Virus record (IMG/VR): IMGVR_UViG_3300033066_000895 | Span: 5,260 to 69,259 of that record | Length of the DNA stretch: 64,000 nt | DNA from: a virus | Taxonomy: Duplodnaviria > Caudoviricetes | Strand: one strand, 5' to 3' | Notes under the pieces: generated by a model | What the model saw: only the letters and a program-made list of their open reading frames with translations | Databases searched by the model: none | What the model was told of the DNA's origin: nothing | Shown: one piece after another, positions 773-62,746 of the stretch | Numbering within the stretch: position 1 is the stretch's first letter | How the letters are laid out: every line of letters begins with the position of its first letter | Position numbers and translations under genes: made by a program

Positions 773-1258
773 TTATTCCTTCTTTACAGGGTCTAGGTGT
801 TCGTCATCATCGTCTTCGTCGTCACCGTAGATATCGGGATTCTGGTAGGGAATGTATCTAACGTTACGAGTCATCCCCCTGTTGAGTCGTGCTGACAGAC
901 CATGAGCCTGAAAGGGATCACCTGAGTAATCGAGAACGACGCGGTACTCGTATAGGTTGGGTATGTGTGTCGGATTGAGTGTGATGACTCCGACGACACA
1001 ACAGTGAGAACGGTTATGGAGTTCTGCAATCAACACGTCTGTTGAGCAGGTCTTCAGGTCTGGATTCCCTTTGATGGCGATATACTGGGCTGGATTCTTG
1101 GTCGTGTACTTGTCTGTGTAAGCTACGCTTTTGGAGGGAAATGATGACCGATTCCTTGCCCCGTAAAGTCGGCTTTTAATGTACTTGATGACCGCGATAC
1201 CAGAAAGGACCACAAAGGCGATCAACAGGAATGCTTGAAAGTCCGTCATATGAATCAT
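773..1258 (-). CDS. hypothetical protein with N-terminal TM helix
   Basis: FQAFLLIAFVVLSGIAVI segment; acidic tail; operon packing. Confidence 0.6.
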   Translation of the reverse strand: MIHMTDFQAFLLIAFVVLSGIAVIKYIKSRLYGARNRSSFPSKSVAYTDKYTTKNPAQYIAIKGNPDLKTCSTDVLIAELHNRSHCCVVGVITLNPTHIPNLYEYRVVLDYSGDPFQAHGLSARLNRGMTRNVRYIPYQNPDIYGDDEDDDDEHLDPVKKE

Positions 1259-1260
1259 AC

Positions 1261-1533
1261 CTATGGTACGAGTTTGCTGATTTTTATTAGAAGTTGATGT
1301 ATCTCCGTCAGGAATACATCTGAGGGTTCACCGTGGTGTAATGACTCCATTCGTTCAGCCATCTTACCGGCTTCCGCAAATGCTTCTTCTCGGGCTTTGT
1401 GTTCTGTACTGAGTTGTTGACAGTGCTGTCTGATTATTGCGGGATCAACAGGTAGACATTCATCGAGTGCTTCTTCTAGCTTTTGGTCGAATTGATTTTG
1501 GGCTTTCTTCAGGATGTTTTCTATTTTGGACAT
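1261..1533 (-). CDS. hypothetical coiled-coil protein
   Basis: Start re-assigned to MSKIEN; helical composition. Confidence 0.55.
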   Translation of the reverse strand: MSKIENILKKAQNQFDQKLEEALDECLPVDPAIIRQHCQQLSTEHKAREEAFAEAGKMAERMESLHHGEPSDVFLTEIHQLLIKISKLVP

Positions 1534-2035
1534 CTTGTACTCCATAGTGACAGATGAGGATTGCATCTGCGGTTTTGTGTGTTGGTTTTAGATGAGGGTA
1601 CAGTTTGTGTGCGAAACGGTACGTGATCTTCTTGTCTCCCTTTGTTTGACAGTTGAGTGCTTTCATCCATTTCTGAGGTGTGACAAATGTATACTTTACA
1701 TCCATGCCGATTAGAAGACCCTCTAGTCGTCCGATGGAGCGGGAGAACTTCATGGATGAGCCGATCCCCTGCCTCATCTTACCGTCTGCATTGGGTCGGA
1801 AAGGCATACCAGCAGGTGTTTCGAGGTAGAAGAAGGTTTCCCCCTGATAGTTCGTTTCAGCCATCCAGTCTTCGATCCACTGGTTGAGGATGTCACGGAC
1901 TTCAGGGGTCGTCTTCGGGAGGTTACAGGCAAAGCATCCACTTTCTAAAGAAGGGAAGTATGTTGAATCTTCCGCCATGAAACACATCCCGCCAGTTGAA
2001 CCGGGATCGATGCCGATGATCATTGTGGGTTTCAT
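1460..2035 (-). CDS. ruvC: RuvC-like Holliday junction resolvase
   Basis: IIGIDPG, YLETP, VTPQKW and ADAILI motifs; ATGA overlap with the upstream gene. Confidence 0.85.
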   Translation of the reverse strand: MKPTMIIGIDPGSTGGMCFMAEDSTYFPSLESGCFACNLPKTTPEVRDILNQWIEDWMAETNYQGETFFYLETPAGMPFRPNADGKMRQGIGSSMKFSRSIGRLEGLLIGMDVKYTFVTPQKWMKALNCQTKGDKKITYRFAHKLYPHLKPTHKTADAILICHYGVQDVQNRKHPEESPKSIRPKARRSTR

Positions 2036-2766
2036 AGGTTGGGAACCTGAATGATACATTTTGTCCAGTCTAGATCGGAGGGGAATATAGAAGCGTAATA
2101 TTCTATTGGTTCAGGCGTCATCTCCCATTCACCAGAACTGGTGTTATATTGACGTGGTTGCCATGAACTGACCCCACGACATGGATGTTCAGTGAACCAC
2201 CAAACTTCGCCATCCTTATCTTTAGCGATCCAATATCCGGGTTTGACTTCAGGAGGGAGGTGAGCATCATTACAGGACCAGTGTCGCTCTTGTCCTTCAA
2301 CGTGCTCTACCCATTTATACGGCTGTTTCTCTTTCCGTTGGAAGCAACACTGATACCACGGTAGATCGAGGATGGATTGGGGGATAGTGCTGATTTTTCC
2401 TAGATAGGTGTAATTGCCAGAAACAGTACCATACCCCCACATTCCATTGGTAGTGAATAATTTAGGTTTTACCTTATGTGAACACCAGTCACCAGAACTA
2501 TCACGAGCGACCCAATAACCGACTGGGACTGAATCAGGCAGGTAAGGACTGATGTCGGGTATCTCTGCTTTCTCCTCAGAAGCGGTAGCGTCTACTACGG
2601 TAGGGATAGTAGGGATTTCAGTTATAGATTCTGTGAGTTGGGCGATCTTGTCGTTTAATGTGCTGATTGTCTGGTATTGGTTTTCGATACGCCCATCTCT
2701 TGCTTTGATTTGCCCCTCAAGCTGTTCGATTCGTCTGAGGAGTTTACCTATAAACTTGGTCTCTGT
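2032..2766 (-). CDS. hypothetical protein with two copies of a GYW[VI]A[RK]D..G domain; frame is open to 2766 with no canonical start (possible +1 frameshift fusion)
   Basis: Hand translation upstream of the track ATG (2442) gives a coiled coil plus GYWVARDSSGDW, paralogous to downstream GYWIAKDKDGEVW. Confidence 0.6.
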   Translation of the reverse strand, partial: TETKFIGKLLRRIEQLEGQIKARDGRIENQYQTISTLNDKIAQLTESITEIPTIPTVVDATASEEKAEIPDISPYLPDSVPVGYWVARDSSGDWCSHKVKPKLFTTNGMWGYGTVSGNYTYLGKISTIPQSILDLPWYQCCFQRKEKQPYKWVEHVEGQERHWSCNDAHLPPEVKPGYWIAKDKDGEVWWFTEHPCRGVSSWQPRQYNTSSGEWEMTPEPIEYYASIFPSDLDWTKCIIQVPNL

Positions 2767-3151
2767 CTACAGCAAGCACTTTTTCTGCATGATGTTTACA
2801 TTCGGATCGCAGGTCTTTCAGTTCAGCATCCTTCTGATTGATCTTGTCGATGAGGGCTTGATATGCTGCCTCACTCGCAGTCAGCTTGTCCTTGTGGAGA
2901 GTGAGGGAATCCATGAGGTTGGTCATCCCCTTTTCGGCTTCTTCAGCACGGTTGCAGAGTTCGTTATTAAACGATTCTGCATTGATAGCTCGTATAAAAC
3001 AATCGTTCATTTTCTCAGTCAGTTCATCGTTTTCTTTATACATCTTTTTTCTAAATGCCCGATGTTCACGGTACATTGCAATCATTCGTAACAACATGAT
3101 CAGAGTTGTAACGCCGAGAATCCACGTTCCAGTAAACAGAGCATCATACAT
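2744..3151 (-). CDS. TM-anchored coiled-coil protein
   Basis: Start MYDALF with AAGGA RBS; TM helix followed by heptads. Confidence 0.65.
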   Translation of the reverse strand: MYDALFTGTWILGVTTLIMLLRMIAMYREHRAFRKKMYKENDELTEKMNDCFIRAINAESFNNELCNRAEEAEKGMTNLMDSLTLHKDKLTASEAAYQALIDKINQKDAELKDLRSECKHHAEKVLAVDRDQVYR

Positions 3152-3237
3152 GAGGGTCTTCCTTCGAGAGTGTATAGAAACGACAACATCCCTATTGTAG
3201 GACAATGGGATGAGCCGATGGAAGTGAGAAAAGAGAA

Positions 3238-8525: not shown

Positions 8526-8758
8526 TGTGTCTTCTTTCTGAATTGTTCTTGAAATAAATCTTCTGTACATTGACGGCATTTCATTTTGCCATTCTGAGGG
8601 TATGGCACCGATGCTTTTCGTCGGTCTTCATGTCCACATTCGAGTTTGAAGTATCTTGACTTATTGATGTATCCTGTGTAACGAGATGCACCATACAAGT
8701 AAGACTCAACAGTCTTTTTAAACACCGACTTTCTAGGAGGGTAACTCATCACTATCAC
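8522..8758 (-). CDS. small Zn-finger protein
   Basis: LECGH...KCRQC. Confidence 0.55.
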   Translation of the reverse strand: MIVMSYPPRKSVFKKTVESYLYGASRYTGYINKSRYFKLECGHEDRRKASVPYPQNGKMKCRQCTEDLFQEQFRKKTQ

Positions 8759-9053
8759 CTTCGGTTTTTGGGGGAGAAGTATATATAATTCCGCATTCGA
8801 TTATTATAGATTGCTTTAACCATTCTGTGTAATCAGAAAACCATTGTTCGGATGCTTTTAAGCTGTTTGCATCATCTGCTGATCCTAGTAATTCGTCAGC
8901 ATCCCTAACTAGCTTTTTCAGCCTTTCAATCTTCTGAGTTGCGTTAAGGTCCATCCCATCGTTGGCGAGCAACTGTCGAACTCGTGTCCTCCCCTCAGTT
9001 GAACGGAGAATCTTGAGCATTTCGGCTTGAGTGATCATTTTCATATGAATCAT
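8733..9053 (-). CDS. hypothetical protein
   Basis: Helical ORF; operon packing. Confidence 0.55.
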   Translation of the reverse strand: MIHMKMITQAEMLKILRSTEGRTRVRQLLANDGMDLNATQKIERLKKLVRDADELLGSADDANSLKASEQWFSDYTEWLKQSIIIECGIIYTSPPKTEGDSDELPS

Positions 9054-9093: not shown

Positions 9094-9372
9094 TTATCCT
9101 ATGGCGATTGCGATCTGTTCGAGTTCGTCAATGAGTTCTTGGGGGGCGGGGATCGTGGAAGCATCGACTTCATTCTTCTGGATTAGCTTTGCGATCCATT
9201 GACCTTTACTGTCTCGTACCTGACTTCCCCTATCCTTGTAGACGGCATTGCGTATTGCCAGACCGCACAATTCACCAATACGGATTAGTCGGACGGTGTG
9301 AGGGGATTTCTGTCCTTTGAGAGACATTGCGAGATTGAAAGCCATTTCTTTAACGTCTTGAGCAGATAACAT
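9094..9372 (-). CDS. hypothetical protein
   Basis: Start MLSAQ with GGAAGGA RBS. Confidence 0.55.
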   Translation of the reverse strand: MLSAQDVKEMAFNLAMSLKGQKSPHTVRLIRIGELCGLAIRNAVYKDRGSQVRDSKGQWIAKLIQKNEVDASTIPAPQELIDELEQIAIAIG

Positions 9373-9613
9373 GGTACTTCCTTCCAAAAACGAAGTGAGG
9401 ATAAAAGGGAGAAGATGTTGCTGACTCGATCCGATTCCCACGGATTCAGTACAAAGGGTACTTGGCCGATATTAACTTCCAAGCCAGCAAACATCCTCCT
9501 GATTTACAGTCTGATCGCACCCATCCGTTAAAGTTCATATGAGGCTTCATTGGAATGACTGGCAGACTGGTTTACAGGCAACTAAAACAAAAAGGTACAG
9601 TGACCCTAAGATC

Positions 9614-10020: not shown

Positions 10021-10927
10021 TTTCTTTTTCTTTCTGTTTGGAGTTCTTTCGTGCTTCGACTTCTTTCATCCGTTTTGGCTTCTCTTCTTCGATGGCTTCC
10101 AGAGCATCGGTTTCAAGTCCGAGTGCTCTAAGGATTGCCATACCATCGATATACTCAGCATCGGGACTGAGTTCTAAGTGATTCATGAACAGTTCTTTAG
10201 AGGCATCTGAGGGGAAGATTACGCGAGCGAAGACTTTACCTTGTCGTAAAAAATCTTGTCGTTCCGCAAATTCTTTTTTACGTTCTTTAATCTCGGAGAT
10301 TTCTTCTTCTTGTGCTTCATCGTAATCGGCTTCTTCAGCGTCGTCTGCTGCCGATTCGATGTCTTCGACCATCTCTTCGATTTCAGGAAGGGATTGAGCT
10401 TCTAGGGGGTCAACCATAAACGCAGGAAGGTCAACACCGCGATCCATGTGTAGAAGTTCAAGACTAGAGAAATCAAAACCAGTGTGTGAAAGATCAACAT
10501 CCGGCATCGATAAGAGTTCATCCAGTTTCTCAATATCCCACGTACCCTTCAGTGCTTCGTTGTTGAGAGCAATGTTGATTTCGATTTCGCGTTCGAGAGG
10601 GACATCAATGACCGAGGCAACCATCGTGTAATCGGCATGACCCTTCAGGATGTCTTCCTGAGCGATCCGCTTGTGACCGCCGACAATGTTTCCGGTTCGG
10701 AGATTCCAGATGGGGGCTTCAATCAGACCACCAGTTAACTTGATGGATTCCCTGAGTTTCTTTTGAGTGACAGGATCGGACTGTTGAGGATTGTAGGGAG
10801 CGTTCTTGAACTTGCTACGGTGAAGGACATGGTAACGGCTACCATCACCAGACCCTTTGATGCCGTCAGGTAAACCTTCGGTTTTTGGGGAAGAATTAGT
10901 GACCGCTTTTTTGGTTTGCTTTTTCAT
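9947..10927 (-). CDS. ParB/Srx-like N-terminal domain protein
   Basis: APYNPQ, IWNLRTGNIVGGHKR, NIALNN..GTWD motifs; acidic linker. Confidence 0.8.
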   Translation of the reverse strand: MKKQTKKAVTNSSPKTEGLPDGIKGSGDGSRYHVLHRSKFKNAPYNPQQSDPVTQKKLRESIKLTGGLIEAPIWNLRTGNIVGGHKRIAQEDILKGHADYTMVASVIDVPLEREIEINIALNNEALKGTWDIEKLDELLSMPDVDLSHTGFDFSSLELLHMDRGVDLPAFMVDPLEAQSLPEIEEMVEDIESAADDAEEADYDEAQEEEISEIKERKKEFAERQDFLRQGKVFARVIFPSDASKELFMNHLELSPDAEYIDGMAILRALGLETDALEAIEEEKPKRMKEVEARKNSKQKEKENGTPSDSKSKRNSGKSTNGKPAKA

Positions 10928-11034
10928 ATGGGAATAGTCTTCTGAAATAGGATTGGTATTTTGGACAGTATTTGCAGTGAGTGGGGTAAACTGCTTTTAA
11001 GCACTGTTTACCGCACGGACAGGTAATAGTGATT

Positions 11035-22572: not shown

Positions 22573-22602
22573 ACTATACCCAAAACTCGGAAGCCGTGTC
22601 AA
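22573..22602 (-). promoter_or_regulatory. promoter, CGGCT class
   Basis: TTGACA-CGGCTT...(18)-TATAGT. Confidence 0.6.
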
Positions 22603-24017
22603 TCCTTTTTCTTATGATGAGTCACAAGTTTTTTTCCATTGAAACTTCTCCAGAGTTCGCGGTACTCATGCTTGAATTGATAGACGTGTCTGTTACGTCC
22701 TTTCCCTTCACCGTTAGCACTTTTACAAAGACTGATTAACCCCATTACACGAAGATCGTCTAGTCGTTTTTTGACGTTTGATTCTGTGAGGTTAACACGT
22801 TTCGCAATTTGTGCTTTATCGAGTCCAATGCTTCCGTTGTCATGTGCTTTGCAGATTTCAGCTACGATATCGTAATTGAATCCTTGAGCAGTATCTAACG
22901 ACATCTTGCGAAGGATACGGAGGATGTTACCCCCTAGTCTGTTAGTTCCAAGAACAACAGATAATCCTACGCCGACTTTCATTAACTGGTTTCCGATGCG
23001 GATACCAATCGCTGATCGAGGACGATAGATAATATCCCGCTCATAACCTTTGCGGGTTACTTCTGCTTTGATCTTAGAAACGAACATTCCAATAGCGGTA
23101 ACCTTGTCAGTAAACCAATCCGGAACTTCAGGAGGTTCCTGAGTTACAAAGCGGTCATACATAACATTGATGAATCCAGCAGTACATCGCTTGATCCGTT
23201 CCATTTTATCTTTCGGGATGAACCGCTCTTTCTCTTCCCCTCCTTCTGGTCCACGTTGTTGGAATGATCCGAGGATAGCACCAACTGTTGAAGTTAAAGC
23301 TGCTTTGATATGAGACTTTGAACCATGAAATTCATCGGTGATATCAATGTGTAAAAACCGAGAACCGAGTTCGGAGTCATTGTACTTGAGGATTGCATCA
23401 GTCACCCCCGCAACCATTGCCATTCTGAAATTCTTGTAGGAGTGATATACACCGTTCTTAAATCTGGCTTCCGATGATCCGTCTGTAACATCCCGCAACT
23501 CCCCTTCAATTTGGTTTCGAGAAGCGTCGGGAAGAGAAAGAATGACGGTCCAGTCCTTGACGAACATGGTTTTCCCATCAATGACTTTCATCAGTGACAG
23601 GTCTTTCTTACCCTTCTTACGTACTCCTGAGTGGAATCCGGTAAACTTAGAAACCGGAACACTGAATCGACTGTTCGCTGAAACTGCCTCACAGATAGTT
23701 GATTTACCAGAACTTGAAGGACCACGAATGAAGAGAAGAACCATTTCATTACCTCCCATCATCGGGGTCAGGATGGTAGCCAGTGTGACAGCTAAGGTAT
23801 CCTTAACTGTTTGAGGCATAAACATCCCTTCCTGCTCATAGATAGCAATCAACTCTTCGAAAGTATCTATCGGAATCGGTTCAAGGTCTTTAGGCTTTGG
23901 TTCTCGGCTTTTTTGTTGGTGCCCGTCTCCGTCCTGATCGTCGTTCAGTTCCGGAGGGTCGACCAGATTCTCTAACAGAAACTCCAGAACATCCGATTCT
24001 GCTGTCGCTGTTATCAA
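22599..24017 (-). CDS. AAA+/MCM-like replicative helicase with C-terminal wHTH
   Basis: Walker A GPSSSGKS, Walker B-like MFVKD; probable TTG start at 24017 with AAGGA RBS. Confidence 0.75.
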   Translation of the reverse strand: MITATAESDVLEFLLENLVDPPELNDDQDGDGHQQKSREPKPKDLEPIPIDTFEELIAIYEQEGMFMPQTVKDTLAVTLATILTPMMGGNEMVLLFIRGPSSSGKSTICEAVSANSRFSVPVSKFTGFHSGVRKKGKKDLSLMKVIDGKTMFVKDWTVILSLPDASRNQIEGELRDVTDGSSEARFKNGVYHSYKNFRMAMVAGVTDAILKYNDSELGSRFLHIDITDEFHGSKSHIKAALTSTVGAILGSFQQRGPEGGEEKERFIPKDKMERIKRCTAGFINVMYDRFVTQEPPEVPDWFTDKVTAIGMFVSKIKAEVTRKGYERDIIYRPRSAIGIRIGNQLMKVGVGLSVVLGTNRLGGNILRILRKMSLDTAQGFNYDIVAEICKAHDNGSIGLDKAQIAKRVNLTESNVKKRLDDLRVMGLISLCKSANGEGKGRNRHVYQFKHEYRELWRSFNGKKLVTHHKKKD

Positions 24018-24432
24018 TTTCTTGTTCCTTATTGTTTGGGGATTGAAGTGATTTATTGATAGCAATCAAAGCTGCAATAGCGGGGTCGGGGGACTGATGA
24101 TCTTCTGCTGTTAAAAGATCATTAAGTTCAGGATGAATTGTCTCGAATTCCATCAGAGCAAAAACGTTCCATGCAATATGAGCAAGATGGTCTTCAGATC
24201 GATCACCCATGAGATACAAATTAAGATGCTCATGAATATGCTGAAACATTTCGGAGAACGCAAATCCTTTTCGGTAGTTGTGTGCTCCGTATTTCACAAA
24301 CCCTTCATGGCAAGTTTCAGCAAGGCGACGTAATCCAATCTGAGGGATTAAGTCGAATCGCCTACCATCAGCAGCAGTAGACCGCATAGCACCTGTTGAG
24401 TGAACTTTGGTTTCCGACGTGTCTTTCTTCAT
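23890..24432 (-). CDS. dATP/dGTP diphosphohydrolase-like (DUF5664-type) protein
   Basis: RFDLIP..GL...G..KYG.HNY.KG...H...G..SEDHLAH.AWN. Confidence 0.8.
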   Translation of the reverse strand: MKKDTSETKVHSTGAMRSTAADGRRFDLIPQIGLRRLAETCHEGFVKYGAHNYRKGFAFSEMFQHIHEHLNLYLMGDRSEDHLAHIAWNVFALMEFETIHPELNDLLTAEDHQSPDPAIAALIAINKSLQSPNNKEQEIDNSDSRIGCSGVSVRESGRPSGTERRSGRRRAPTKKPRTKA

Positions 24433-24704
24433 TTAGGAATTCCTTGAGCAATAACAATGGGAGAGGGTTCATTCTTTCTGAAATGACGTGATGGGAAGAG
24501 TTCGTGTGTAACCCCTTCTGTATCAGTTAAGTTTAATCTCATCTTGGATATCATGTCGAATCCCTGTTGATTAACAACGATCAAACCTAGACCACAGATG
24601 ATCATGGAGAGTTCAGCGACTTGAATGTCGGGTTGAGGATAGAACTCATAAGTTGTAATTGGTTCAACAGTGCCGTTTAGATGTTGGTTAAGATGAGCCA
24701 TCAT
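24429..24704 (-). CDS. hypothetical protein
   Basis: ATGA overlaps at both ends. Confidence 0.6.
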   Translation of the reverse strand: MMAHLNQHLNGTVEPITTYEFYPQPDIQVAELSMIICGLGLIVVNQQGFDMISKMRLNLTDTEGVTHELFPSRHFRKNEPSPIVIAQGIPK

Positions 24705-25567
24705 TTTTTTGTTTCCTTCAATTTGAGCATGAACAGATCACGGACATCGAATCCATCGGCTAGACCTTCTGGCCACTGGATAAACTTGAGTCTAGGGCGA
24801 ACATCATCGTCAAGTGATTCACACATCTTCGCAATACGGATCATTCCATCATAACCGGGTTTTGTGATTTTGCCTGTTGATTCTGACTTCCGTTCGTAGT
24901 CGTTATCGAATACCAGATAGACATCCCGGTTGAGTAGTTTATCGACCCATTCAGATTTAAATCCTTTTGCACCGGGAACAGAGAGTACATCAAACTCTTT
25001 TCGGCGTTTGAGTTTCCTCAAGACATGTTCCATGATTAGCCAATCCCAATGACCCTCAACAATCCATAATGGCTTCGCCTCTTGGGAAAGAAACTGTAAC
25101 CCCAAAAGACCGCTGTTCATCCCTGTAGTGCCGAACAGTCGGTTTTTAACCTCCCAGTACTTATGAATGTTGGTAACTATCGTGTTGCCTCTGTCGTTGA
25201 TTTTACAGGTAGGAATTAACCATTCCCCTGTAATAACCGATCGGCAGAGTCCGCAGAGTTTGGAGATAGAAGATGGAATGCGTTTCGCCTTCCACAGGTA
25301 CCCGTAGTCTTCTGTGTTTTGCTGAGAATACTTTATCAGCTTGTTCAGGAATGTAAATACGTTTCCTGATTCATCACAGTGATGACAAGACCACATGCCG
25401 TCAACGATCTTCTTCCCGTCTTTGAACTCGGGTGGACCGACCTTGACGTAGAAGTGACCTACCTTGCCGCAGAATGGACAATCGGATTTCTTCTGTCCCT
25501 GATTCGCGTCTGTGAACGCCATTCCGTGAAATTCAAATGCACGAATATAGTTTGTTTCGTCAGCCAT
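24701..25567 (-). CDS. DNA primase (Zn finger + TOPRIM)
   Basis: CPFC..HFY..WSCHHC; VEGHWD, VFDND, FDVRD. Confidence 0.85.
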   Translation of the reverse strand: MADETNYIRAFEFHGMAFTDANQGQKKSDCPFCGKVGHFYVKVGPPEFKDGKKIVDGMWSCHHCDESGNVFTFLNKLIKYSQQNTEDYGYLWKAKRIPSSISKLCGLCRSVITGEWLIPTCKINDRGNTIVTNIHKYWEVKNRLFGTTGMNSGLLGLQFLSQEAKPLWIVEGHWDWLIMEHVLRKLKRRKEFDVLSVPGAKGFKSEWVDKLLNRDVYLVFDNDYERKSESTGKITKPGYDGMIRIAKMCESLDDDVRPRLKFIQWPEGLADGFDVRDLFMLKLKETKK

Positions 25568-25575
25568 GTTATCTT

Positions 25576-27627
25576 TCAGAGAGAGAGAACCTTGATCCCC
25601 TTATCCCACGATTTGAGGATAACTTCGGGTTCTGTAGGGACAACCATATTATAGAATTGACCGGCGTTTTCCATCAGGTTCTTGATTTCCCACAAATGGG
25701 GGCAGTCTGAATACTCAAAGCAGAGTGTTGCTTTGTTTTCTTCGTTGAAATGAAATTTGAGACGGTCGTTCATATCCCATTTTGGAAGTGGAACACTGAA
25801 CAGTAATTCGTCGTGTACCTGAGCAATTAACTTGATCCCTGATTCTGAGTGTTTGTTGAGGTAGTTGTAGCAGTCGATCATAGCACGCTTAACAATCTCA
25901 CCTTCCGATCCCTGAACCATATAGTTGACTCCCTTATGTGTCTGATCACAGACGAGGGGGTAACCACCGGGAGTAAATACAACTTTGTCTTTCCTGACTC
26001 GTGCCTGTGTTGCTTTCATAAATGCATGAGCACTGGAGAACATCTTGGTGACTTCACCCCATAGACCATCACGTCCGGCTGTCTGCTCAATCTTCCGAGG
26101 AGAAGCACCGAAGATAAATCCAAAGTTGACGTTCTTACCGATACGCCTTTGCATCTTGTTGGGTTTAACACCGGGGGGCAGTTTGAAGATTCGGGAAGCC
26201 ATATAATCATGGGCATCCCATCCGCGAGCAAAGGCTTCCTGTAACGATTTCTCATCAGAGATGTAGGCGAATATTCTAAGTTGTAATTGTGAGTAATCGA
26301 TCGAGTACCACATGAATCCCGGTTCAGGACCGAAGCATTTACGGAGTCCTAAATCCGACTTCCAGAGTTCATTCATCAGTTCCCGTAGACCGTCGTTTTC
26401 TTCTTTCGATTCGTCGAATCCTTTTGAGACGATTTGTGTAGGGGGGTTGTTGTATGAGAGTCGGGTTGTGCCGGTTTGCACCAGATTGATTGAAGGGTAC
26501 AACCGTCCGTTATGTTCATTGGCACGGAATAGCTTAATGTAGTCGCAGGTTTTCTGATGCTTCTTTCCGAGGATCAACGATTTCCCAAACTCATGCATCC
26601 GTTTGTCGAATTTAACTTTGATGCCATCAGGGAACGTAAGGTCTGCAATTGTTTTGAAGTCAGTTGATAGCTGCCCCTTTTTGGTTCTCTTGATAACCGG
26701 CATCCTCCAGTTATCGTAGAGCAGAGAACAGAGTTGTTTGTAACTGTTCGGATTGAATGTGGTATTAGCGGGTAGGCTTTCAGCAGCAATCCGTTTTGCG
26801 GTTTCAAAATGCTTGTTGGCGATTGCTTGAGTACGCTTTTCTTCACGTTCCATAACGTCGCTATGAATTGGAATCCCTATGTTTTCCATATCGTAAGCGA
26901 CTCGAATCGTCCTATGACTGAAACGATCTTGTTTTGTCAGTTTGCGTTCCTCAATCTGTGATCGGAAGAGGTAGAACAGCCAAAGGGTACGCTCTGCATC
27001 GAGCATTGCGTATCGTTCACAGACTTCAGCGAAATGGATGGTTTCCTCTCGTGTGAGGATTCGTCTGTTCTCGTATTTCTCTTGAGCGTAGAGAGAGAGT
27101 TCTTTCGGTATCCACATGTCACAGACAGGCCACCCCTCTTTAGGAGCGTCTCCATTTGCTGGCTTGAAATGTGGATGATCTTCATGGGCAACTGCCCATC
27201 CGAGTTTAGTAGCAAGCCGCCTTGACTTATTAGAGACTTTGAGGAGTTCTTTTTGATCGCTGTCCCCTATACCGATGTATCTTGCCGCCAGTCCTTTTAG
27301 ATTATGCGGTTCGGCAGAGTTGACTAAATGTGATTGGTGCCAAGTATCAAATATTTTATCCCAGTGAGGGAGACGTACACCCATTGCTTCAAGAGCGTGA
27401 CAGTCGAATTTGGCATTGTGAAACACAAGACCATCTTCGTCTGAGTTCAAGTAGTCTTCGATATCCCGAACTTTTCTCTTTTCGTAAATGGGTGTACGGG
27501 TCATCCTGTTGACGCGGAAGTCCCAGTACTTTGGTGGATCACCGTTATCATTATATGTTGAAACAGCAAACGCTCTGCATCCGTGTTTTATGAAAAGGCC
27601 AGTCGTTTCGCTATCTGCTGCTATCAT
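25576..27627 (-). CDS. polA: family A DNA polymerase with 3'-5' exonuclease domain
   Basis: ExoI DSETTG, ExoII HNAKFD, ExoIII YAMLD; motif A DYSQLQLR, motif B RRIGKNVNFG, motif C VHDEL. Confidence 0.95.
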   Translation of the reverse strand: MIAADSETTGLFIKHGCRAFAVSTYNDNGDPPKYWDFRVNRMTRTPIYEKRKVRDIEDYLNSDEDGLVFHNAKFDCHALEAMGVRLPHWDKIFDTWHQSHLVNSAEPHNLKGLAARYIGIGDSDQKELLKVSNKSRRLATKLGWAVAHEDHPHFKPANGDAPKEGWPVCDMWIPKELSLYAQEKYENRRILTREETIHFAEVCERYAMLDAERTLWLFYLFRSQIEERKLTKQDRFSHRTIRVAYDMENIGIPIHSDVMEREEKRTQAIANKHFETAKRIAAESLPANTTFNPNSYKQLCSLLYDNWRMPVIKRTKKGQLSTDFKTIADLTFPDGIKVKFDKRMHEFGKSLILGKKHQKTCDYIKLFRANEHNGRLYPSINLVQTGTTRLSYNNPPTQIVSKGFDESKEENDGLRELMNELWKSDLGLRKCFGPEPGFMWYSIDYSQLQLRIFAYISDEKSLQEAFARGWDAHDYMASRIFKLPPGVKPNKMQRRIGKNVNFGFIFGASPRKIEQTAGRDGLWGEVTKMFSSAHAFMKATQARVRKDKVVFTPGGYPLVCDQTHKGVNYMVQGSEGEIVKRAMIDCYNYLNKHSESGIKLIAQVHDELLFSVPLPKWDMNDRLKFHFNEENKATLCFEYSDCPHLWEIKNLMENAGQFYNMVVPTEPEVILKSWDKGIKVLSL

Positions 27628-27658
27628 ATTATGCCTTCGTTTCTGGGGGAGAAGATGA

Positions 27659-28162
27659 TTAGTAACCGAATGTCAAACCGAGTGCTTTATCAGATAGCTT
27701 GCCGCTGAATAGATTGACCATTTCCTTTTCATCTTCATCGAGCCGACTGTATTGGATGAGAGTTACAGGTCGAGGATTCAATACATACCAATCTGAAAAC
27801 GTATCTTTTATTAGAAATCGAATTGGTGTCTCTGCTCGTTCATTCAGATTACCGAGGACAGCAACAATCAATCCCCGCTTCACAATATCAGGTGTTCCCG
27901 CGATTGTACCTGAACAGAAGTTCCCGACATATTTTGTTGTCAGCAGTTCTGGGCTATCAGAGAGAGCGTCTTCAATCCCTGATCGAATCTGAGGTTTTAG
28001 TGTGGGAAGAAGTTCATCCCTTAGAACAATCACTGACGGGGGTAGCTGGATGGCTATAGCTGCTCTTTTAGTCCTGTCTGCAAGCTTGATAATCCCGTGA
28101 CAGTTGGCAACAGTATCGAGAAGCAGAATCTCCTCATTACCGGCAATAGATAGTGCCAGCAT
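27659..28162 (-). CDS. CsrA-like N-terminal domain fused to an unknown domain
   Basis: MLALS...EEI...AAIAIQLPPSVIVLRDEL aligns by eye with the CsrA pattern ML.L...GE.I...V.IGI.AP..V...R.E. Confidence 0.5.
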   Translation of the reverse strand: MLALSIAGNEEILLLDTVANCHGIIKLADRTKRAAIAIQLPPSVIVLRDELLPTLKPQIRSGIEDALSDSPELLTTKYVGNFCSGTIAGTPDIVKRGLIVAVLGNLNERAETPIRFLIKDTFSDWYVLNPRPVTLIQYSRLDEDEKEMVNLFSGKLSDKALGLTFGY

Positions 28163-28266
28163 GGTAGTCCTTTCCATAAGGGAAAAAAGAAAAGCCTCTA
28201 CAGTTTTTATGTATAGGAACAACGAACTGTAGAGGCTCAATAAATCAGAACGGACAGACAGAAGGG

Positions 28267-29751: not shown

Positions 29752-30687
29752 CTACCGGACAACCTTGCGTTTTGTGGTACTTTTTGATGGCTTTTCCTCC
29801 TGTGGATCAAGTTGACTGATCAGGTCATTCCACATTTCTTTTGGAGAATCATAAGGACCGATTTCGGGTTCAAGACCAAAACGATTCTTGGCGGTATAGG
29901 TCGCACAGTACTCAGTGCCAATGATACGAGTCTCACCACCCTTCGCTTTGTTCTTTCCGAACTTGCTGTTCCCTTCCTTGTTAATCTCGATGTTGTGTTT
30001 CACGAATAGAACAGCATCAGCCCATCGAGAAGTCATCTTCCAGATTGATTGTGCTTTTGGAGGATCAGCAAGATCAGGAGCATACCGATCGTAGTCAGGA
30101 CCATCGGGATTGTTGAACTTCTCAATACGTGAGTGACCAATCAGAGCAACGTTGACACCGATAGCACGAATACGATCCAGACGAGAAATGAACTCAGGCC
30201 AGTACTGTTGGGCTGTCGTAATCGGACCTTGTTGGAAAGCAAGGAAACCTTCCTTCGAGTTCAGATCACCCCCAAAGTTTGCATCTGCACAAGCTTGATA
30301 GGCGAGTCGTTGAATTTCGGAGAGTCCGTCAACAGCCAACCATTTATAGCTGTGGTCTGACTCAGCGAATTCATCAAGAGAATCGAGCGTGTCTTGGAAT
30401 GATTCGACAGGACGCCCGATCGTTACAGATGAAGGTACCAGTCCTCTCTTCTTCAGGATGTTGATTCCGCGTTCTTGAGGACCACAAAGGAAGAAAACGT
30501 TTGGAGCGAATCCGAGAAGGCTAGACTTCCCTACCCCTTCAGGACCATAAATCATTAAGCCTAGACCGTAGTTGTCGGCAACTGATTCTTCATCTTCAAC
30601 TGAGTCGAGCATACTTACCCGATCAGTATTCACTTTACGCTTCGCCTTTGGAGAAGATAGACGACGTTCACGAGATATCGATACCAT
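29752..30687 (-). CDS. Sak4-like (AAA_24) ssDNA-annealing ATPase
   Basis: GPEGVGKS, AVDGLSEIQ, LIGHS, WADAVLF, AKNRFGL. Confidence 0.85.
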   Translation of the reverse strand: MVSISRERRLSSPKAKRKVNTDRVSMLDSVEDEESVADNYGLGLMIYGPEGVGKSSLLGFAPNVFFLCGPQERGINILKKRGLVPSSVTIGRPVESFQDTLDSLDEFAESDHSYKWLAVDGLSEIQRLAYQACADANFGGDLNSKEGFLAFQQGPITTAQQYWPEFISRLDRIRAIGVNVALIGHSRIEKFNNPDGPDYDRYAPDLADPPKAQSIWKMTSRWADAVLFVKHNIEINKEGNSKFGKNKAKGGETRIIGTEYCATYTAKNRFGLEPEIGPYDSPKEMWNDLISQLDPQEEKPSKSTTKRKVVR

Positions 30688-59936: not shown

Positions 59937-60336
59937 AATAAAATTCTGAAAACGGAGGTGTGGTATATAAATCATCAACTCCAAAAAAAGTCGGATTTCC
60001 AACTAGGTATGTCGATCCTCTCATCTCCCTTCCCCCGCTAGTAGATAGAGTACTCACTTCGTTCGTACTCTATCTACACCCCTATCCCTCTTACTCTCCT
60101 TTACTACGTTTCTGGAGGAGAATAACAGTACTCTTGACAGGTACTCTTCTCTTCTGTATCTATAATAGAGAGGAATACGAACGAAGTGAGTATTCCTCTC
60201 TCTTCTAGTATTTATATGATTTATATACATATACCCCATTTTCAGAATTTTATTAAAAATGCAAAATCAGAGTACCTCAGTACAGGAAACACTTTTTAAT
60301 AAAATTCTGGTTTCAGACAATGGTGATATGAATCAT
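59937..60336. other. symmetric cis-acting locus (candidate origin/pac or divergent promoter pair)
   Basis: Inverted 39-bp elements enclosing two opposite-strand hairpins; see findings. Confidence 0.5.
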
Positions 60337-60669: not shown

Positions 60670-60676
60670 TGTAGAA

Positions 60677-61093: not shown

Positions 61094-61118
61094 CTGTCTG
61101 ACAAAATTTGGGCCGGGG

Positions 61119-61356: not shown

Positions 61357-61569
61357 ATGGATCAAGCCCTTGGTCAGATAATTTTTACTCGACCTCCGAA
61401 TGATTCTGTTTTTATACGGGAGAGGTGGAATCCTCATTACCTTACTCGGAATGACAGACAGTTGATTGTAAAAGCATTACGTGAAATTGCCGATGCAATG
61501 GACCTCGACGAGTTTGAACACAAGGGATACAAACGGTATTTCAAACCAGCGGAAGAAAGTTCAAAATGA
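61357..61569 (+). CDS. hypothetical protein
   Basis: AGGTGG RBS; ATGA overlap. Confidence 0.55.
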   Translation: MDQALGQIIFTRPPNDSVFIRERWNPHYLTRNDRQLIVKALREIADAMDLDEFEHKGYKRYFKPAEESSK

Positions 61570-61928
61570 CCCCTACTGCCCTTTTCTGTTGTGTCGTTAT
61601 GATCGTCATCGCAATCTATGATGGGATTGCGGTCAGCTTGTGGGGTGTTTCTGGAAGCGTCAGTAAGTGGATTCAGCGGACAGCAATTTCTAGCCCGATG
61701 TTTTCATTTTCATTCGGATTCATCGCTGGTCATTTGTTTGGGTATATGCCTGTTGACATGCCAAAAGCAAATCAAGACGGAATGTGGATTTCTGCTTTTC
61801 ACATTTTTATGATTTTACTTTTTGTGTGCCTCACGGTTGCTCTGAGGGATTCAATCACTATTTTGCGGAGCATGCTCAATGAGCGGAAATACAGAAAAGA
61901 AAACCGAGGATATCGGATCGATCGTTAA
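61566..61928 (+). CDS. multi-TM membrane protein
   Basis: Three hydrophobic segments. Confidence 0.6.
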   Translation: MTPTALFCCVVMIVIAIYDGIAVSLWGVSGSVSKWIQRTAISSPMFSFSFGFIAGHLFGYMPVDMPKANQDGMWISAFHIFMILLFVCLTVALRDSITILRSMLNERKYRKENRGYRIDR

Positions 61929-62020
61929 TCGTAATTCTTCTCCAGAGACCGAAGGTCGGAAACGCTACTACCCCGATAAGACATGTTGCAACGGATCACT
62001 CATCTACGAAGGAAATCAAA

Positions 62021-62404
62021 ATGGGATACAGAAGACAACAGGAGAGAAAACTGAGGGTCAAGACCGATCCGGAATTCAGACTCCGAGTTCTTGAGCATAC
62101 GAATGAATGGATTGCCAAGAACGTAAATCGTAGTGCAATGTTCCGGTTCCGAATCGTTTATCAAAGTCGTGAGTCTGGTTGTCCTCAAGTGCTCAAAGGG
62201 TCAGCGGCATCAAGTAAAAAGCATATTGAGCATACATTCCGTAATCGGTTTCCGGATTCTCGAATTCTGAATATCAAGCGGCTAGGAACGAAAACGTTTA
62301 AGCCCTCTGTTCCAAAGGCGATCCAGAAACGGTTAAGGTCTGAAAAACTGGCAGAGATGAAGCAACGAGCAGAAGAGTTGAAGGATATCGTCAAGAAAAA
62401 ATGA
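62021..62404 (+). CDS. basic hypothetical protein
   Basis: AAGGA RBS. Confidence 0.55.
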   Translation: MGYRRQQERKLRVKTDPEFRLRVLEHTNEWIAKNVNRSAMFRFRIVYQSRESGCPQVLKGSAASSKKHIEHTFRNRFPDSRILNIKRLGTKTFKPSVPKAIQKRLRSEKLAEMKQRAEELKDIVKKK

Positions 62405-62457
62405 GTTAAGCACGCCTCATTCAAAACGTGTTATCCCCTTTGTTTGGAGAGTGAAAG

Positions 62458-62688
62458 ATGAAAGTAGCAGACGTTAAGTTGAAGTGGACCCGTAGTCCAA
62501 ATTCAGATGTCACAAGCAGGAAGCTTAATGTAACAATCAATGGTGAAACGAATTCGTATGATGTCGGACCTGAAGTCAGCGAATACATGATTGAAGTTCA
62601 AGCGTTGGGTACAGTACAATTCAATACCACGATCTTCGACAATGAAGGGAATGAAGTCTCATCCGAGACGGCTACCTTTTCTCCATGA
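62458..62688 (+). CDS. stand-alone FN3/Ig-like domain protein
   Basis: VKLKWTRSP..DV...Y.V...Y.I.VQA beta-sandwich pattern. Confidence 0.5.
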   Translation: MKVADVKLKWTRSPNSDVTSRKLNVTINGETNSYDVGPEVSEYMIEVQALGTVQFNTTIFDNEGNEVSSETATFSP

Positions 62689-62746
62689 GAGTTCGATTCC
62701 CTCTAGAGCAAATGATGTAAGACTCCGTCTTTTGGAAGGAAACCAG

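What the first reader, a model, noticed from the sequence alone, without database searches (positions are those of the whole stretch)
1120..62743. Genome-wide, strand-biased, covarying C(GNA)G mini-hairpin + CCA motif: candidate dedicated priming sites or ssDNA hairpin promoters
Seen by eye: about 22 copies of a ~24-nt element with plus-strand consensus [stem]-T(T/A/C)C-[stem']-TYTG(G/A)-RGRRGAA. Plus-strand sites start at 1120, 4911, 8757, 10872, 14980, 17188, 19907, 21617, 25071, 27633, 30639, 36077, 39629, 45234, 52896, 54979, 60103 and 62719. Minus-strand sites are at 11831, 60645, 61933 and (weaker) 2566. The stem covaries: AAGC-TAC-GCTT, AAACC-TTC-GGTTT, AAGCC-TAC-GGCTT, AAC-TTC-GTT, AAGAC-TCC-GTCTT, GACC-TTC-GGTC, AGCG-TTC-CGCT. 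This points to selection on structure rather than sequence alone; some stems are only 1-2 bp (27633, 60103). Copies occur both intergenically and inside unrelated genes, yielding peptides such as SPKTEG, SSPKAK, FILLRNEV and LPQKAK. On the opposite strand the loop reads GAA/GTA/GGA closed by C-G. Established: C(GNA)G triloops are exceptionally stable DNA mini-hairpins, coliphage N4 virion RNAP promoters are template-strand hairpins of this type upstream of a C start, and G4/RSF1010-type origins use hairpin-directed priming. Inference: with no RNAP in the window and most sites antisense to their genes, they may be sequence-plus-structure priming sites for the encoded primase, templating pppGGAG... 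primers every few kb on one strand, with opposite-strand sites clustered near the 60-kb locus. Alternatives: programmed nick sites, repressor 'stoperator'-like sites, modification or ParB loading sites, or GGA-containing RNA sites (11831, 14980 and 62719 overlap an RBS).
Basis: partly seen in the sequence, partly recalled or inferred. Interest (0 to 1): 0.92.

Follow-up and report, generated by a model that had tools for sequence, protein, structure and literature searches.

The report
Evenly spaced phage DNA mini-hairpin signals
An uncultured phage and several distant relatives carry about one copy every 3.5 kb, mostly on one strand and even inside genes, of a tiny covarying hairpin joined to a fixed purine-rich box; it most likely marks where lagging-strand DNA synthesis is primed, but this is unproven.

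Summary
A regex for hairpin plus box finds 18 (+) and 4 (-) copies in the 69-kb genome, against 0.38 and 0.36 in shuffles. Six copies lie deep in coding DNA, against 0.32 after synonymous-codon shuffles. A covariance model recovers all 18 plus-strand sites and 3 of the 4 minus-strand sites; 2566 fails. It adds 5 new sites.

The three inner base pairs covary, and the closing C-G pair is nearly invariant. On the opposite strand the loops read GNA or GNNA, the rule for extra-stable DNA mini-hairpins.

Five distant relatives (PolA 41-46% identical) carry lineage variants, always on the strand opposite PolA. Site positions are not orthologous, but density and even spacing are kept (CV 0.43 and 0.51). 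A copy inside the primase gene is not an insertion.

Sites in the oppositely transcribed UvrD cluster stay on the majority strand in four genomes. This argues for a DNA-strand process rather than transcription.

Best reading (about 0.4): dispersed single-strand initiation signals for the phage's zinc-ribbon/TOPRIM primase and its AAA+ helicase-like partner. Rivals are T5/tf-type nick sites, non-template-strand or RNA elements, and Chi-like sites.

This scan has noted a comparable cassette in another phage (e1-3429061).

The parts
1117..1147 (+). motif copy (AAGC-TAC-GCTT + TTGGAGGGAAA), inside a minus-strand ORF, antisense
   Evidence: CM R1 29.0 bits
4907..4937 (+). motif copy, 687 nt into a 329-aa minus-strand gene
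   Evidence: CM 26.3 bits; context
8753..8783 (+). motif copy at a gene boundary
   Evidence: CM 29.4 bits
9371..9401 (-). new copy, RBS-type (box serves as Shine-Dalgarno sequence, ATG follows)
   Evidence: CM 21.4 bits; sequence
10870..10900 (+). motif copy near the 5' end of the ParB-like gene
   Evidence: CM 30.9 bits
11827..11857 (-). RBS-type copy in front of the PAPS-reductase-like gene
   Evidence: CM 24.2 bits; Pfam PF01507
14976..15006 (+). RBS-type copy in the small plus-strand gene cluster
   Evidence: CM 30.7 bits
17186..17216 (+). intergenic copy filling the whole spacer between a stop codon and the next ATG of two minus-strand genes
   Evidence: CM 31.1 bits
19903..19933 (+). 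copy inside a 149-aa gene
   Evidence: CM 23.9 bits
21614..21644 (+). copy inside a 277-aa gene; the only G-C closing pair
   Evidence: CM 22.8 bits
22102..22132 (-). weak extra copy (GCC-TGC-GGC + TTCTGAGGAAGGAAA)
   Evidence: CM 20 bits; sequence
25067..25097 (+). copy inside the primase gene; encodes QFLSQEAKP, which aligns gap-free with homologues, so it is not an insertion
   Evidence: CM 30.1 bits; alignment A2
27629..27659 (+). intergenic copy ending 5 nt before the PolA start codon; relative L020 has a copy in the same place
   Evidence: CM 24.1 bits; L020 9968-10000
30634..30664 (+). copy near the 5' end of the AAA_24 gene
   Evidence: CM 27.2 bits
36074..36104 (+). copy in the plus-strand UvrD cluster, so sense to the local genes; it keeps the majority strand
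   Evidence: CM 31.0 bits; same behaviour in rel, L019, L014
39626..39656 (+). copy 1238 nt into a 504-aa structural-region gene
   Evidence: CM 30.0 bits
45232..45262 (+). intergenic copy ending 2 nt before an ATG
   Evidence: CM 26.0 bits
52891..52921 (+). copy inside a 572-aa gene
   Evidence: CM 28.7 bits
54975..55005 (+). intergenic copy between a stop codon and the next ATG
   Evidence: CM 29.9 bits
60098..60128 (+). copy between the twin hairpins of the divergent intergenic region
   Evidence: CM 24.2 bits
60641..60671 (-). opposite-strand copy in the plus-strand cluster right of the divergent region
   Evidence: CM 25.6 bits
61930..61960 (-). opposite-strand copy, intergenic
   Evidence: CM 25.4 bits
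62717..62747 (+). RBS-type copy
   Evidence: CM 25.0 bits
60041..60077 (-). 13-bp-stem hairpin whose tip shows AC-GAA-GT on the minus strand; part of the candidate origin
   Evidence: the repeat finder I5; DNA fold -10.8 kcal/mol, z -4.9
60167..60201 (+). 12-bp-stem hairpin with the same GAACGAAGTGA tip on the plus strand; mirror partner
   Evidence: the repeat finder I3/I2; fold -10.5 kcal/mol, z -3.9
24701..25567 (-). zinc-ribbon/TOPRIM DNA primase, the candidate reader of the motif
   Evidence: PHROG 47/239/849; invariant CPFC...C..C and EGHWD motifs in alignment A2
22599..24065 (-). P-loop ATPase with C-terminal winged helix; fused to the primase in relatives; weak MCM/AAA+-like fold
   Evidence: 36% identical to residues 319-744 of rel's 766-aa primase fusion; Foldseek MCM hits E 3e-6 but TM 0.35, on a low-confidence model with pLDDT 61
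25576..27627 (-). family A DNA polymerase, used as the family marker
   Evidence: PHROG 17 E 5e-85; homologues

Best explanation
The element acts on single-stranded DNA. That is a pyrimidine-rich box with an almost invariant CCA, a short A-rich spacer and a C(GNA)G or C(GNNA)G mini-hairpin.

I propose that it is a dispersed single-strand initiation signal, working in these steps:
1. When this strand is exposed as lagging or displaced template, the compact hairpin stays free of single-strand binding protein and serves as a landmark.
2. The phage's zinc-ribbon/TOPRIM primase starts at the CCA. In relatives this primase is fused to an AAA+/MCM-like ATPase with a winged helix.
3. The primase makes a purine-rich primer of about 10 nt (pppGGAGRAGAA).
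4. One such site every 1.4-7.7 kb on one strand gives programmed Okazaki starts.
5. The few opposite-strand copies next to the twin-hairpin divergent region would serve the short opposite fork from a candidate origin there.

Shown: the motif, its structure, its strand bias, its spacing and its family-wide conservation. Inferred: the ssDNA state, the primase as reader, the primer and the origin.
For: 1. Structure is selected. The inner three pairs covary, and the closing C-G pair is kept in 48 of 51 sites.

2. The loops obey the DNA mini-hairpin rule on the complementary strand. G first, A last, the middle base free (GAA > GTA > GGA/GCA), with GNNA tetraloops in relatives. The review PMC13037366 states that only GNA loops form these hairpins. 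It also reports them at the G4/St-1 primase origins, at RSF1010 ssiA (RepB' primase) and at N4 hairpin promoters.

3. Spacing is even on the majority strand.
- Own genome: n=20, CV 0.43 (P 1.5e-4), minimum gap 1430 nt (P 5e-5).
- Relative: n=16, CV 0.51 (P 0.005), minimum gap 1784 nt (P 1e-4).

4. Copies are forced into coding DNA: 6 observed against 0.32 expected. The copy in the primase gene is not an insertion.

5. The motif is kept in six genomes with PolA only 41-46% identical. It is always on the strand opposite PolA, and positions are not orthologous.

6. In the oppositely transcribed UvrD cluster, sites keep the majority strand in the own genome, rel, L019 and L014. None is flipped. 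This points to a strand-specific rather than a transcription-specific process.

7. Flipped non-RBS copies lie only in the cluster beside the divergent region, 3 in the own genome and 1 in rel. In the own genome that region holds two long hairpins that present the same GAA tip on opposite strands, like the ssiA/ssiB arrangement.

8. A cognate primase is present. No DnaB-type helicase was found. The primase partner looks like MCM/AAA+. Such helicases track the leading-strand template, which would leave the primase to find sites on coated ssDNA (inference from established helicase polarity).

9. The conserved box from TGG to GAA is 10-11 nt long, the usual length of a DnaG-type primer (my own knowledge).
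Against:
- TOPRIM primases normally need only a trinucleotide. No dispersed structured priming signal is known for a dsDNA phage.
- L011 (PolA 51% identical) has an intact primase but lacks the motif in 22 kb.
- About eight copies sit in sense orientation as ribosome-binding sites. Five of these are on the 'wrong' strand for the fork model.
- Third-codon GC skew makes the strand carrying the purine box G-rich throughout, including the flipped cluster. Under the bacterial deamination rule this suggests the opposite strand assignment, and it shows no replichore switch.
- Nearest-neighbour energies do not separate the two strands, and wobble pairs do not either.
- The MCM-like fold rests on a low-confidence model.
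Confidence: 0.4

Rival explanations
1. The sites are programmed single-strand interruptions (nick sites) of the T5 / phiKMV / tf kind. A phage nickase would cut one strand at each site late in infection, so that packaged DNA carries ligatable nicks about every 3.5 kb.
For: The genomic pattern is the same. Phage tf has 14 nicks, all in the top strand of a 46-kb genome with convergent gene sets, within a 9-nt consensus. phiKMV-like nicks lie in the non-coding strand (PMC3517423). Here about 80% of copies are on one strand regardless of gene orientation, and spacing is even. Nuclease candidates exist: an HNH protein at 29258-29683 and a ParB-like nuclease-fold protein at 9947-10927.
Against: Known nick consensus sequences are linear duplex words without covarying stems. 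The HNH gene is absent from the same place in rel. The strand rule is not absolute here, whereas it is absolute in tf. Nick positions are similar among LUZ24-like phages, while here positions turn over.
Confidence: 0.15
2. The element acts in transcription or in mRNA. One form is a non-template-strand mini-hairpin plus pause box that recruits an elongation or antitermination factor, in the manner of ops/RfaH. The other form is an RNA element (CU-rich box plus hairpin) placed after stop codons for processing, stability or translational coupling.
For: Most non-RBS copies have the GNA hairpin on the sense (non-template) strand. E. coli ops folds into a C:G-closed GGTA mini-hairpin in the non-template strand (PMC5995543). 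The weak site at 2566 reads AGCGGTAGCGTC on that strand, close to the ops consensus as I recall it. Loop centres are enriched in non-ORF DNA, 9 of 25 against 7.3% expected. Intergenic copies begin right after stop codons and replace the Shine-Dalgarno sequence of the next gene, including PolA in two genomes.
Against: In the UvrD clusters of four genomes the sites are on the template strand, and none is flipped. The majority-strand series, including copies in plus-strand clusters, is more evenly spaced (CV 0.43) than the antisense-only series (CV about 0.51, my hand calculation). Copies deep inside genes in several reading frames make poor processing sites. No Rfam family matches. No NusG/RfaH-like gene was looked for successfully.
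Confidence: 0.15
3. The element is a Chi-like, strand-specific control sequence for a helicase-nuclease. The reader would be either the host's enzyme or the phage's own UvrD-like helicase with its PD-(D/E)XK nuclease. The site would protect or direct processing of replicating or packaged linear DNA.
For: It is a strand-biased, over-represented, evenly dense motif that ignores gene orientation and turns over in position. It is read as ssDNA, and its density of about one per 3.5 kb resembles my recollection of E. coli Chi density (not checked here). All family members encode a UvrD/AddA-like helicase beside a RecB/Cas4-like nuclease.
Against: Known Chi sites are 5-8-nt linear words without structure. 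The motif varies between related phages more than a host-encoded reader would allow. L011 has the same helicase and nuclease but no motif.
Confidence: 0.08
4. The element is an RNA-level regulatory set. The sense copies (hairpin plus GGA-rich Shine-Dalgarno box) would be targets of the phage's CsrA-like protein, or of base pairing with the complementary CU-rich copies carried in the many antisense-type mRNAs. This would give temporal shut-off of a few genes.
For: Every box contains GGA. The protein encoded just upstream of PolA (27659-28240) is homologous to a CsrA-domain protein of L011 (E 6e-15). It also has a weak CsrA match of its own (E 0.003, below the family cut-off). CsrA-domain genes recur in L020 and L021. 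About eight copies are true ribosome-binding sites.
Against: This explains only the minority class. GGA lies outside the loop, unlike CsrA sites. L011 has the protein but not the motif, while rel has the motif but no detectable homologue. Even spacing and the strand rule remain unexplained.
Confidence: 0.07
5. The element is a selfish miniature repeat of the REP/MITE type that spreads by insertion.
For: It is a short dispersed hairpin repeat enriched between genes. This scan has seen mobile mini-hairpin units in other viruses.
Against: The copy in the primase gene aligns gap-free with homologues that lack it. Copies occur in several reading frames within conserved genes. Stems differ between copies, which a copied unit would not show. 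Even spacing and strand bias are unexpected for a selfish repeat. No transposase was seen.
Confidence: 0.03

Closest known systems
Single-strand initiation (ssi) signals: the G4/St-1/alpha3 complementary-strand origins (DnaG) and RSF1010 ssiA/ssiB (RepB' primase)
   Same: Both are ssDNA elements made of a conserved single-stranded stretch plus a hairpin tipped by a GNA/GNNA mini-hairpin: GCGAAAGC in G4, CCGAAGG in ssiA (PMC13037366). They are read by a primase. ssiA and ssiB sit on opposite strands at the origin, like the twin hairpins at 60041-60201. RepB' binds 6 nt 5' of the hairpin (PMC8567376), the side on which the box lies here.
   Different: Known ssi signals occur once or twice per replicon, at origins, and have 8-10-bp stems. 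Here there are about 25 copies, genome-wide and evenly spaced, with 2-6-bp stems, some inside genes. The primase here is TOPRIM type, not RepB'/AEP. RepB' starts 3' of the hairpin, where nothing is conserved here.
Coliphage N4 virion RNA polymerase early promoters
   Same: Both have a template-strand hairpin with a 3-nt GAA/GGA loop closed by C-G (GCGAAGC in P1), followed on the 5' side of the template by an A-rich spacer and a C-rich start region. The P1 oligonucleotide is 5'-TGCCTCCCAGGCAGTCAAAAGTTGCGAAGCAAC (PMC13434306). Here the strand reads 5'-TTCTCCTCCAGAAAGCGAAGC.
   Different: N4 has three such promoters, in sense orientation in front of early genes, and a 3500-aa vRNAP. Here most copies would drive antisense RNA, stems are shorter than the 5-7 bp of N4, and no T7/N4-like polymerase gene was detected.
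Localized single-strand interruptions of T5, phiKMV-like phages and phage tf
   Same: A strand-specific dispersed consensus: 14 sites in 46 kb in tf, independent of gene orientation (PMC3517423).
   Different: Those are short linear duplex words, strictly on one strand and similarly placed in relatives. Here the element is a covarying hairpin, about 20% of copies are on the other strand, and positions turn over.
ops element / RfaH recruitment
   Same: A C:G-closed mini-hairpin with a G...A loop in exposed single-stranded DNA, read by a protein (PMC5995543).
   Different: ops lies once in the operon leader and strictly in the non-template strand. The orientation test fails here in the UvrD clusters.
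Dispersed mini-hairpin cassette noted earlier in this scan (e1-3429061)
   Same: A phage of about 64 kb with dispersed copies of a box plus a GCGNAGC mini-hairpin, read there as priming sites or a promoter.
   Different: It is a different genome and a different box, has nine copies that are all intergenic, and involves a RepB'-type primase. It is an unchecked AI note, not independent evidence.

Membership tests
DNA mini-hairpin d(C-GNA-G)/d(C-GNNA-G) | Loop has G first and A last with the middle base free, closed by C-G | tested here: met
   The closing pair is C-G in 48 of 51 sites. Loops on the complementary strand are GAA, GTA, GGA, GCA, and GACA/GATA/GGGA/GTCA/GAAA/GGTA in relatives. The rule is taken from PMC13037366.
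DNA mini-hairpin d(C-GNA-G)/d(C-GNNA-G) | Folds as DNA with unusual thermal stability | not testable with these tools
   ViennaRNA DNA parameters give -2 to -3.4 kcal/mol, equal for both strands. They carry no GNA bonus.
ssi / G4-type priming signal | A cognate primase is encoded or available | tested here: met
   Zinc-ribbon plus TOPRIM primase at 24701-25567, conserved across the family.
ssi / G4-type priming signal | One or two copies, located at a replication origin | tested here: not met
   About 25 dispersed copies. Only the twin hairpins at 60041-60201 have an origin-like layout.
ssi / G4-type priming signal | Primer synthesis starts at the element on ssDNA | not testable with these tools
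   This needs an in vitro primase assay or mapping of nascent-strand ends.
N4-type hairpin promoter | Template-strand hairpin with a 5-7-bp stem and a 3-nt loop with a central purine | tested here: inconclusive
   The loops fit, except that GTA and GCA have a central pyrimidine. Stems are 1-5 bp in this genome and up to 6 bp in relatives.
N4-type hairpin promoter | Sits upstream of genes in sense orientation | tested here: not met
   Only about 8 of about 28 copies precede a gene in sense orientation. The rest are antisense or internal.
N4-type hairpin promoter | A virion or other single-subunit RNA polymerase is encoded | tested here: inconclusive
   No PF00940 match was found, but the control genomes also gave none. 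No RNAP hit appeared among about 48 proteins scanned. CheckV rates the contig 68% complete.
Localized nick sites (T5, tf, phiKMV) | Consensus confined to one strand | tested here: inconclusive
   20 strong copies on the plus strand against 5 on the minus strand.
Localized nick sites (T5, tf, phiKMV) | Ligatable nicks in virion DNA | not testable with these tools
ops / non-template-strand factor recruitment | Element always in the non-template strand of the transcribed unit | tested here: not met
   Sites in the UvrD clusters of the own genome, rel, L019 and L014 lie on the template strand.
Chi | Short linear word without structure, read by RecBCD/AddAB | tested here: not met
   The stem covaries. 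The host, and therefore the host's Chi, is unknown.
REP/MITE-type mobile repeat | Copies arise by insertion | tested here: not met
   The copy in the primase gene is gap-free against six homologues. Only this one copy was tested.
CsrA binding site | GGA presented in the loop of a short hairpin | tested here: not met
   The loops are TNC/GNA. The GGA lies in the single-stranded box 3' of the hairpin.
Rfam RNA families | Match at gathering score | tested here: not met
   No match in the window.

The most novel reading that the evidence does not exclude
A family of uncultured dsDNA phages programmes its lagging-strand synthesis. Okazaki fragments would start at dedicated, evenly spaced sequence-plus-structure signals, each a GNA mini-hairpin with a CCA start and a pyrimidine template for an all-purine primer. 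A TOPRIM primase coupled to an AAA+/MCM-like helicase would read them. The signals are important enough to be written into coding sequences. This would be the first case of genome-wide ssi-type priming signals, as opposed to trinucleotide recognition.
Probability: 0.33. Interest if true: 0.88.

Novelty: new variant of a known kind. Interest (0 to 1): 0.72.

Why it matters
If these are priming signals, lagging-strand initiation in a dsDNA virus can be hard-wired by structured DNA landmarks rather than by near-random trinucleotides. Mini-hairpin DNA, so far known only at a few origins and promoters, would then become a genome-wide signal.

The case also gives a clean in vitro system: a 288-aa primase and 31-nt oligonucleotides with natural compensatory variants.

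If the sites are instead nick sites or non-template-strand recruitment sites, they would be the first structured examples of those classes.

In any of these cases, a 26-nt nucleic-acid signal that overrides codon choice about every 3.5 kb is a strong, testable constraint on phage genome evolution. It is also a useful signature for recognising this phage family.

Tried and rejected
- Megablast of 24 kb against GenBank phages gave no match.
- The IMG/VR relatives L009/L010 (PolA 37% identical) lack the motif. They carry localized iteron arrays instead.
- GNA/GNNA mini-hairpins as a general class are not enriched in the own genome or the partial loci and are only mildly above shuffles in rel. Only the hairpin-plus-box combination is clearly enriched.
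- K-mer neighbourhood discovery in L011 and L014 returned only codon-level repeats.
- No alternative hairpin motif was found in L011.
- Cumulative GC and AT skews show no clear origin or terminus. The third-codon skew is strand-wide and conflicts with the fork model.
- The TopIB idea (pyrimidine-specific cleavage) was dropped. The TopIB domain is fused to the portal only in rel, not in this genome.
- Base-modification ideas: no TGT/DpdA and no PurZ were found.
- The genome search could not reach the Logan/ENA records.
- A genome-contig scan with PolA gave only 22-27% identical hits in bacterial MAGs, so no host was identified.
- Sense-strand hits inside PolA (rel record position 17730, L020 11329) lie at the same PolA offset in both genomes. 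They reflect a conserved peptide and are not sites.
- Wobble-pair counts do not tell which strand folds.

Full report
**Source and coordinates.** The window is bases 5260-69259 of a 69,259-bp IMG/VR virus record. Window coordinate equals genome coordinate minus 5259. CheckV rates the record 68% complete. However, syntenic relatives assemble to 67.9-71.6 kb with different break points, so I infer that the contig is near complete and circularly permuted.

Recognisable genes:
- family A DNA polymerase, 25576-27627(-)
- zinc-ribbon/TOPRIM primase, 24701-25567(-)
- UvrD-like helicase, 33639-35303(+)
- PD-(D/E)XK nuclease
- AAA_24 ATPase
- UDG-like protein
- ThyX
- PAPS-reductase-like and ParB-like proteins
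- a MazZ-like dGTP diphosphohydrolase domain
- major capsid protein

Most other proteins have no family hit. Most genes lie on the minus strand. Four plus-strand clusters interrupt them.

- A regex asks for a T-N-C triloop, at least 2 bp of stem, YTG(G/A) and a purine run ending in GA(A). It finds 18 plus-strand and 4 minus-strand copies in the genome. The means in 300 dinucleotide shuffles are 0.38 and 0.36.
- Restricted to the interiors of genes, 6 copies are seen against 0.32 after shuffling synonymous codons. Protein sequence therefore does not force the motif.
- A covariance model built from 22 sites scores the listed sites at 22.8-31.1 bits. It adds window 9371-9401(-) and 22102-22132(-). 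It also adds three copies in the 5.2 kb left of the window.
- The 'weaker' site at 2566 is not recovered.

**Anatomy.** Conservation runs from the second stem pair through 20 nt after the loop. Nothing is conserved on the other side of the hairpin. The distance from the loop to TGG is fixed at 5-6 nt.

Across 51 distinct sites from six genomes:
- the closing pair is C-G in 48
- the next pair is GC 22, CG 15, AU 11
- the third pair is GC 20, AU 17, GU 3
- no shuffle of 500 reaches the observed covariation score, and slid registers score far lower

That alignment was fitted to the model and leans towards it. The hand-made alignment gives the same picture.

The loops are TTC, TAC, TCC and TGC, and in relatives TGTC, TATC, TCCC, TGAC, TTTC and TACC. 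On the complementary strand these read G-N-A or G-N-N-A closed by C-G. This is the stated rule for the unusually stable DNA mini-hairpins GCGNAGC and GCGNNAGC (PMC13037366). T...C loops have no such rationale, so I infer that the complementary strand is the one that folds, as DNA. Neither nearest-neighbour energies nor wobble pairs can confirm this.

**Relatives.** A PolA search found syntenic contigs with 41-51% identical PolA.
- I rebuilt 60.7 kb of one of them ('rel', 45% identical) from five overlapping loci. It carries about 17 sites with the box TCTGGAGAGAA.
- L020, L019, L021 and L014 carry lineage variants, for example hairpin-TTGGGAGAG in L019 and hairpin-CTGAAGATGAA in L014. Their stems reach 6 bp and have quite different sequences.
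- In all of these genomes the motif lies on the strand opposite PolA.
- L011 (51% identical) and L009/L010 (37%) lack it.
- Site positions are not orthologous between this genome and rel. One exception is a copy immediately upstream of the PolA start codon, shared by this genome and L020.
- Apparent sense-strand hits inside PolA in rel and L020 fall at the same PolA offset and reflect a conserved peptide.
- The copy inside the primase gene encodes QFLSQEAKP, which aligns without gaps to six homologues. It therefore arose in place and not by insertion.

**Distribution.**
- On the majority strand of this genome, 20 sites have gaps of 1.4-7.7 kb: CV 0.43 (P 1.5e-4) and minimum gap 1430 nt (P 5e-5).
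- In rel, 16 sites give CV 0.51 (P 0.005) and minimum gap 1784 nt (P 1e-4).
- Adding the minority-strand sites makes the spacing less even.
- Loop centres fall in non-ORF DNA 9 times in 25, against 7.3% expected.
- Several intergenic copies fill the whole spacer between a stop codon and the next ATG.

**Orientation.** Two rules compete: 'one genome strand' and 'antisense to the local gene'. Gene clusters of minority orientation decide between them.
- In the UvrD cluster, sites stay on the majority strand in this genome (36074), in rel (two sites), in L019 and in L014. None is flipped.
- In the cluster between the terminase operon and the structural operon, the non-RBS copies are flipped. These are window 60641 and 61930 and genome 2153 in this genome, and record position 52100 in rel.
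- That cluster starts at a divergent intergenic region. In this genome the region holds two long hairpins (13-bp and 12-bp stems) whose tips present the same GAACGAAGTGA on opposite strands, with one motif copy between them.
- A model with an origin there, and one long and one short fork, fits all 20 non-RBS copies here. It also fits all but one in rel.
- The model has two free switch points. Third-codon GC skew is strand-wide and shows no switch, and cumulative skews are flat.

**A second class.** About eight copies lie in sense orientation, with the purine box acting as the Shine-Dalgarno sequence 5-9 nt before an ATG. They are 9371(-), 11827(-), 14976(+), 62717(+), genome 1311(+) and 2742(+), and three in rel. 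They score as full members. Those on the majority strand fit the even series, so they may be dual-use sites. Those on the other strand remain unexplained.

**Mechanism.** Covariation excludes simple duplex recognition. Even spacing on one strand, indifference to the orientation of the UvrD cluster, and copies forced into genes all point to a process on single-stranded DNA that runs along the whole genome.

Known biological uses of these mini-hairpins are primase origins (G4, St-1), ssiA/ssiB of RSF1010, and N4 hairpin promoters. The N4 P1 template oligonucleotide has the same order of parts: a C-rich start region, an A-rich spacer, then GCGAAGC. However, most copies here would give antisense RNA, and no suitable polymerase was found. 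That search's control was uninformative.

The primase is present. Its partner protein (22599-24065) is 36% identical to the C-terminal part of rel's 766-aa primase fusion. It has a P-loop and a winged helix. It gives MCM hits by fold search, though on a low-confidence model with low TM-scores. No DnaB-type domain was found.

If the helicase tracks the leading-strand template, as AAA+ helicases do, the primase must find starts on coated ssDNA. An SSB-resistant hairpin next to a CCA start and a pyrimidine template for a purine primer of about 10 nt would serve that purpose. This chain is inference. I give it about 0.4.

**Rivals.**
- Nick sites of the tf/T5/phiKMV kind share the genomic statistics but not the structure.
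- A non-template-strand (ops-like) element shares the hairpin type but fails the UvrD-cluster test.
- Chi-like control fits the statistics but not the stem.
- A CsrA-like protein is encoded upstream of PolA. It could act on the RBS-type copies only.
- Mobile repeats are contradicted by the primase copy.

**Novelty.** The parts are known: the mini-hairpin, ssi logic and strand-specific dispersed sites. The combination has no described counterpart that I could find in the held literature or in Rfam. That combination is genome-wide, evenly spaced, covarying, embedded in coding DNA and conserved across a phage family. This scan has noted a comparable cassette in another phage (e1-3429061). That note is a lead, not evidence.

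Noticed in passing
window 45410-49051(-); L018:18426-20933(+): The portal protein carries lineage-specific C-terminal cargo. The first ~400 aa are 53% identical between this phage and the relative. The relative's tail is a type IB topoisomerase domain (PF01028, E 1.6e-20), while this phage's 800-aa tail has no family hit.
   Followed up: partly
window 27659-28240(-): The protein just upstream of PolA is homologous (E 6e-15) to an L011 protein with a CsrA domain. It has a weak CsrA match of its own (E 0.003, below the cut-off). CsrA-domain genes recur in L020 and L021, so a CsrA-like RNA binder seems to belong to this phage family's replication module.
   Followed up: partly
window 59937-60309: A large mirror-symmetric divergent region: 39-nt inverted repeats containing ATGATTTATATAC at both flanks, two long hairpins with reverse-complementary 11-nt tips, and a 17-nt perfect inverted repeat at 60243-60309. 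It is a candidate origin and/or a pair of divergent promoters.
   Followed up: partly
window 24118-24369(-): A MazZ-like dGTP diphosphohydrolase N-terminal domain (PF18909, E 2e-17), also present in rel and L011, with no PurZ and no TGT detected. This hints at dGTP depletion or a guanine-related DNA modification, which could alter how the G-rich motif behaves.
   Followed up: partly
window 9947-11832(-): A ParB-like nuclease-fold protein (PHROG 9353/620) lies next to a PAPS-reductase-like PP-loop protein (PF01507). The same PAPS-reductase-like gene is present in rel. This may be a DNA modification pair. The PAPS-reductase gene uses a motif copy as its ribosome-binding site.
   Followed up: partly
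L016:12362-14089(+): In the relative, ThyX is interrupted by an intein with an HNH/HTH insert (precomputed Pfam hits). The PolA of another relative (P0048) carries a LAGLIDADG-type insert, and the PolA of L020 is 976 aa long.
   Followed up: no
window 29258-29683(-): An HNH endonuclease (PHROG 5200, E 2e-14) lies between the AAA_24 gene and the 327-aa gene. It is absent from that place in the relative, so it is probably a homing endonuclease.
   Followed up: no
L010:4500-4800 and 18350-18570, 21800-21920: The more distant IMG/VR relatives have dense localized iteron arrays (GAACGTAGTCA and CAATCGATTTTGTCGGGG) instead of the dispersed motif.
   Followed up: no
window 22599-24065(-): The C-terminal winged helix of the primase-partner ATPase is most similar, weakly, to archaeal Lrs14/Sta1/Sso10a regulators. 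One PolA relative (P0011) is labelled as coming from an archaeal MAG. The host domain is therefore open.
   Followed up: no
rel record 27259-27330 (L012:20885-20947): Two motif copies sit back to back on opposite strands within about 70 nt in the relative.
   Followed up: no
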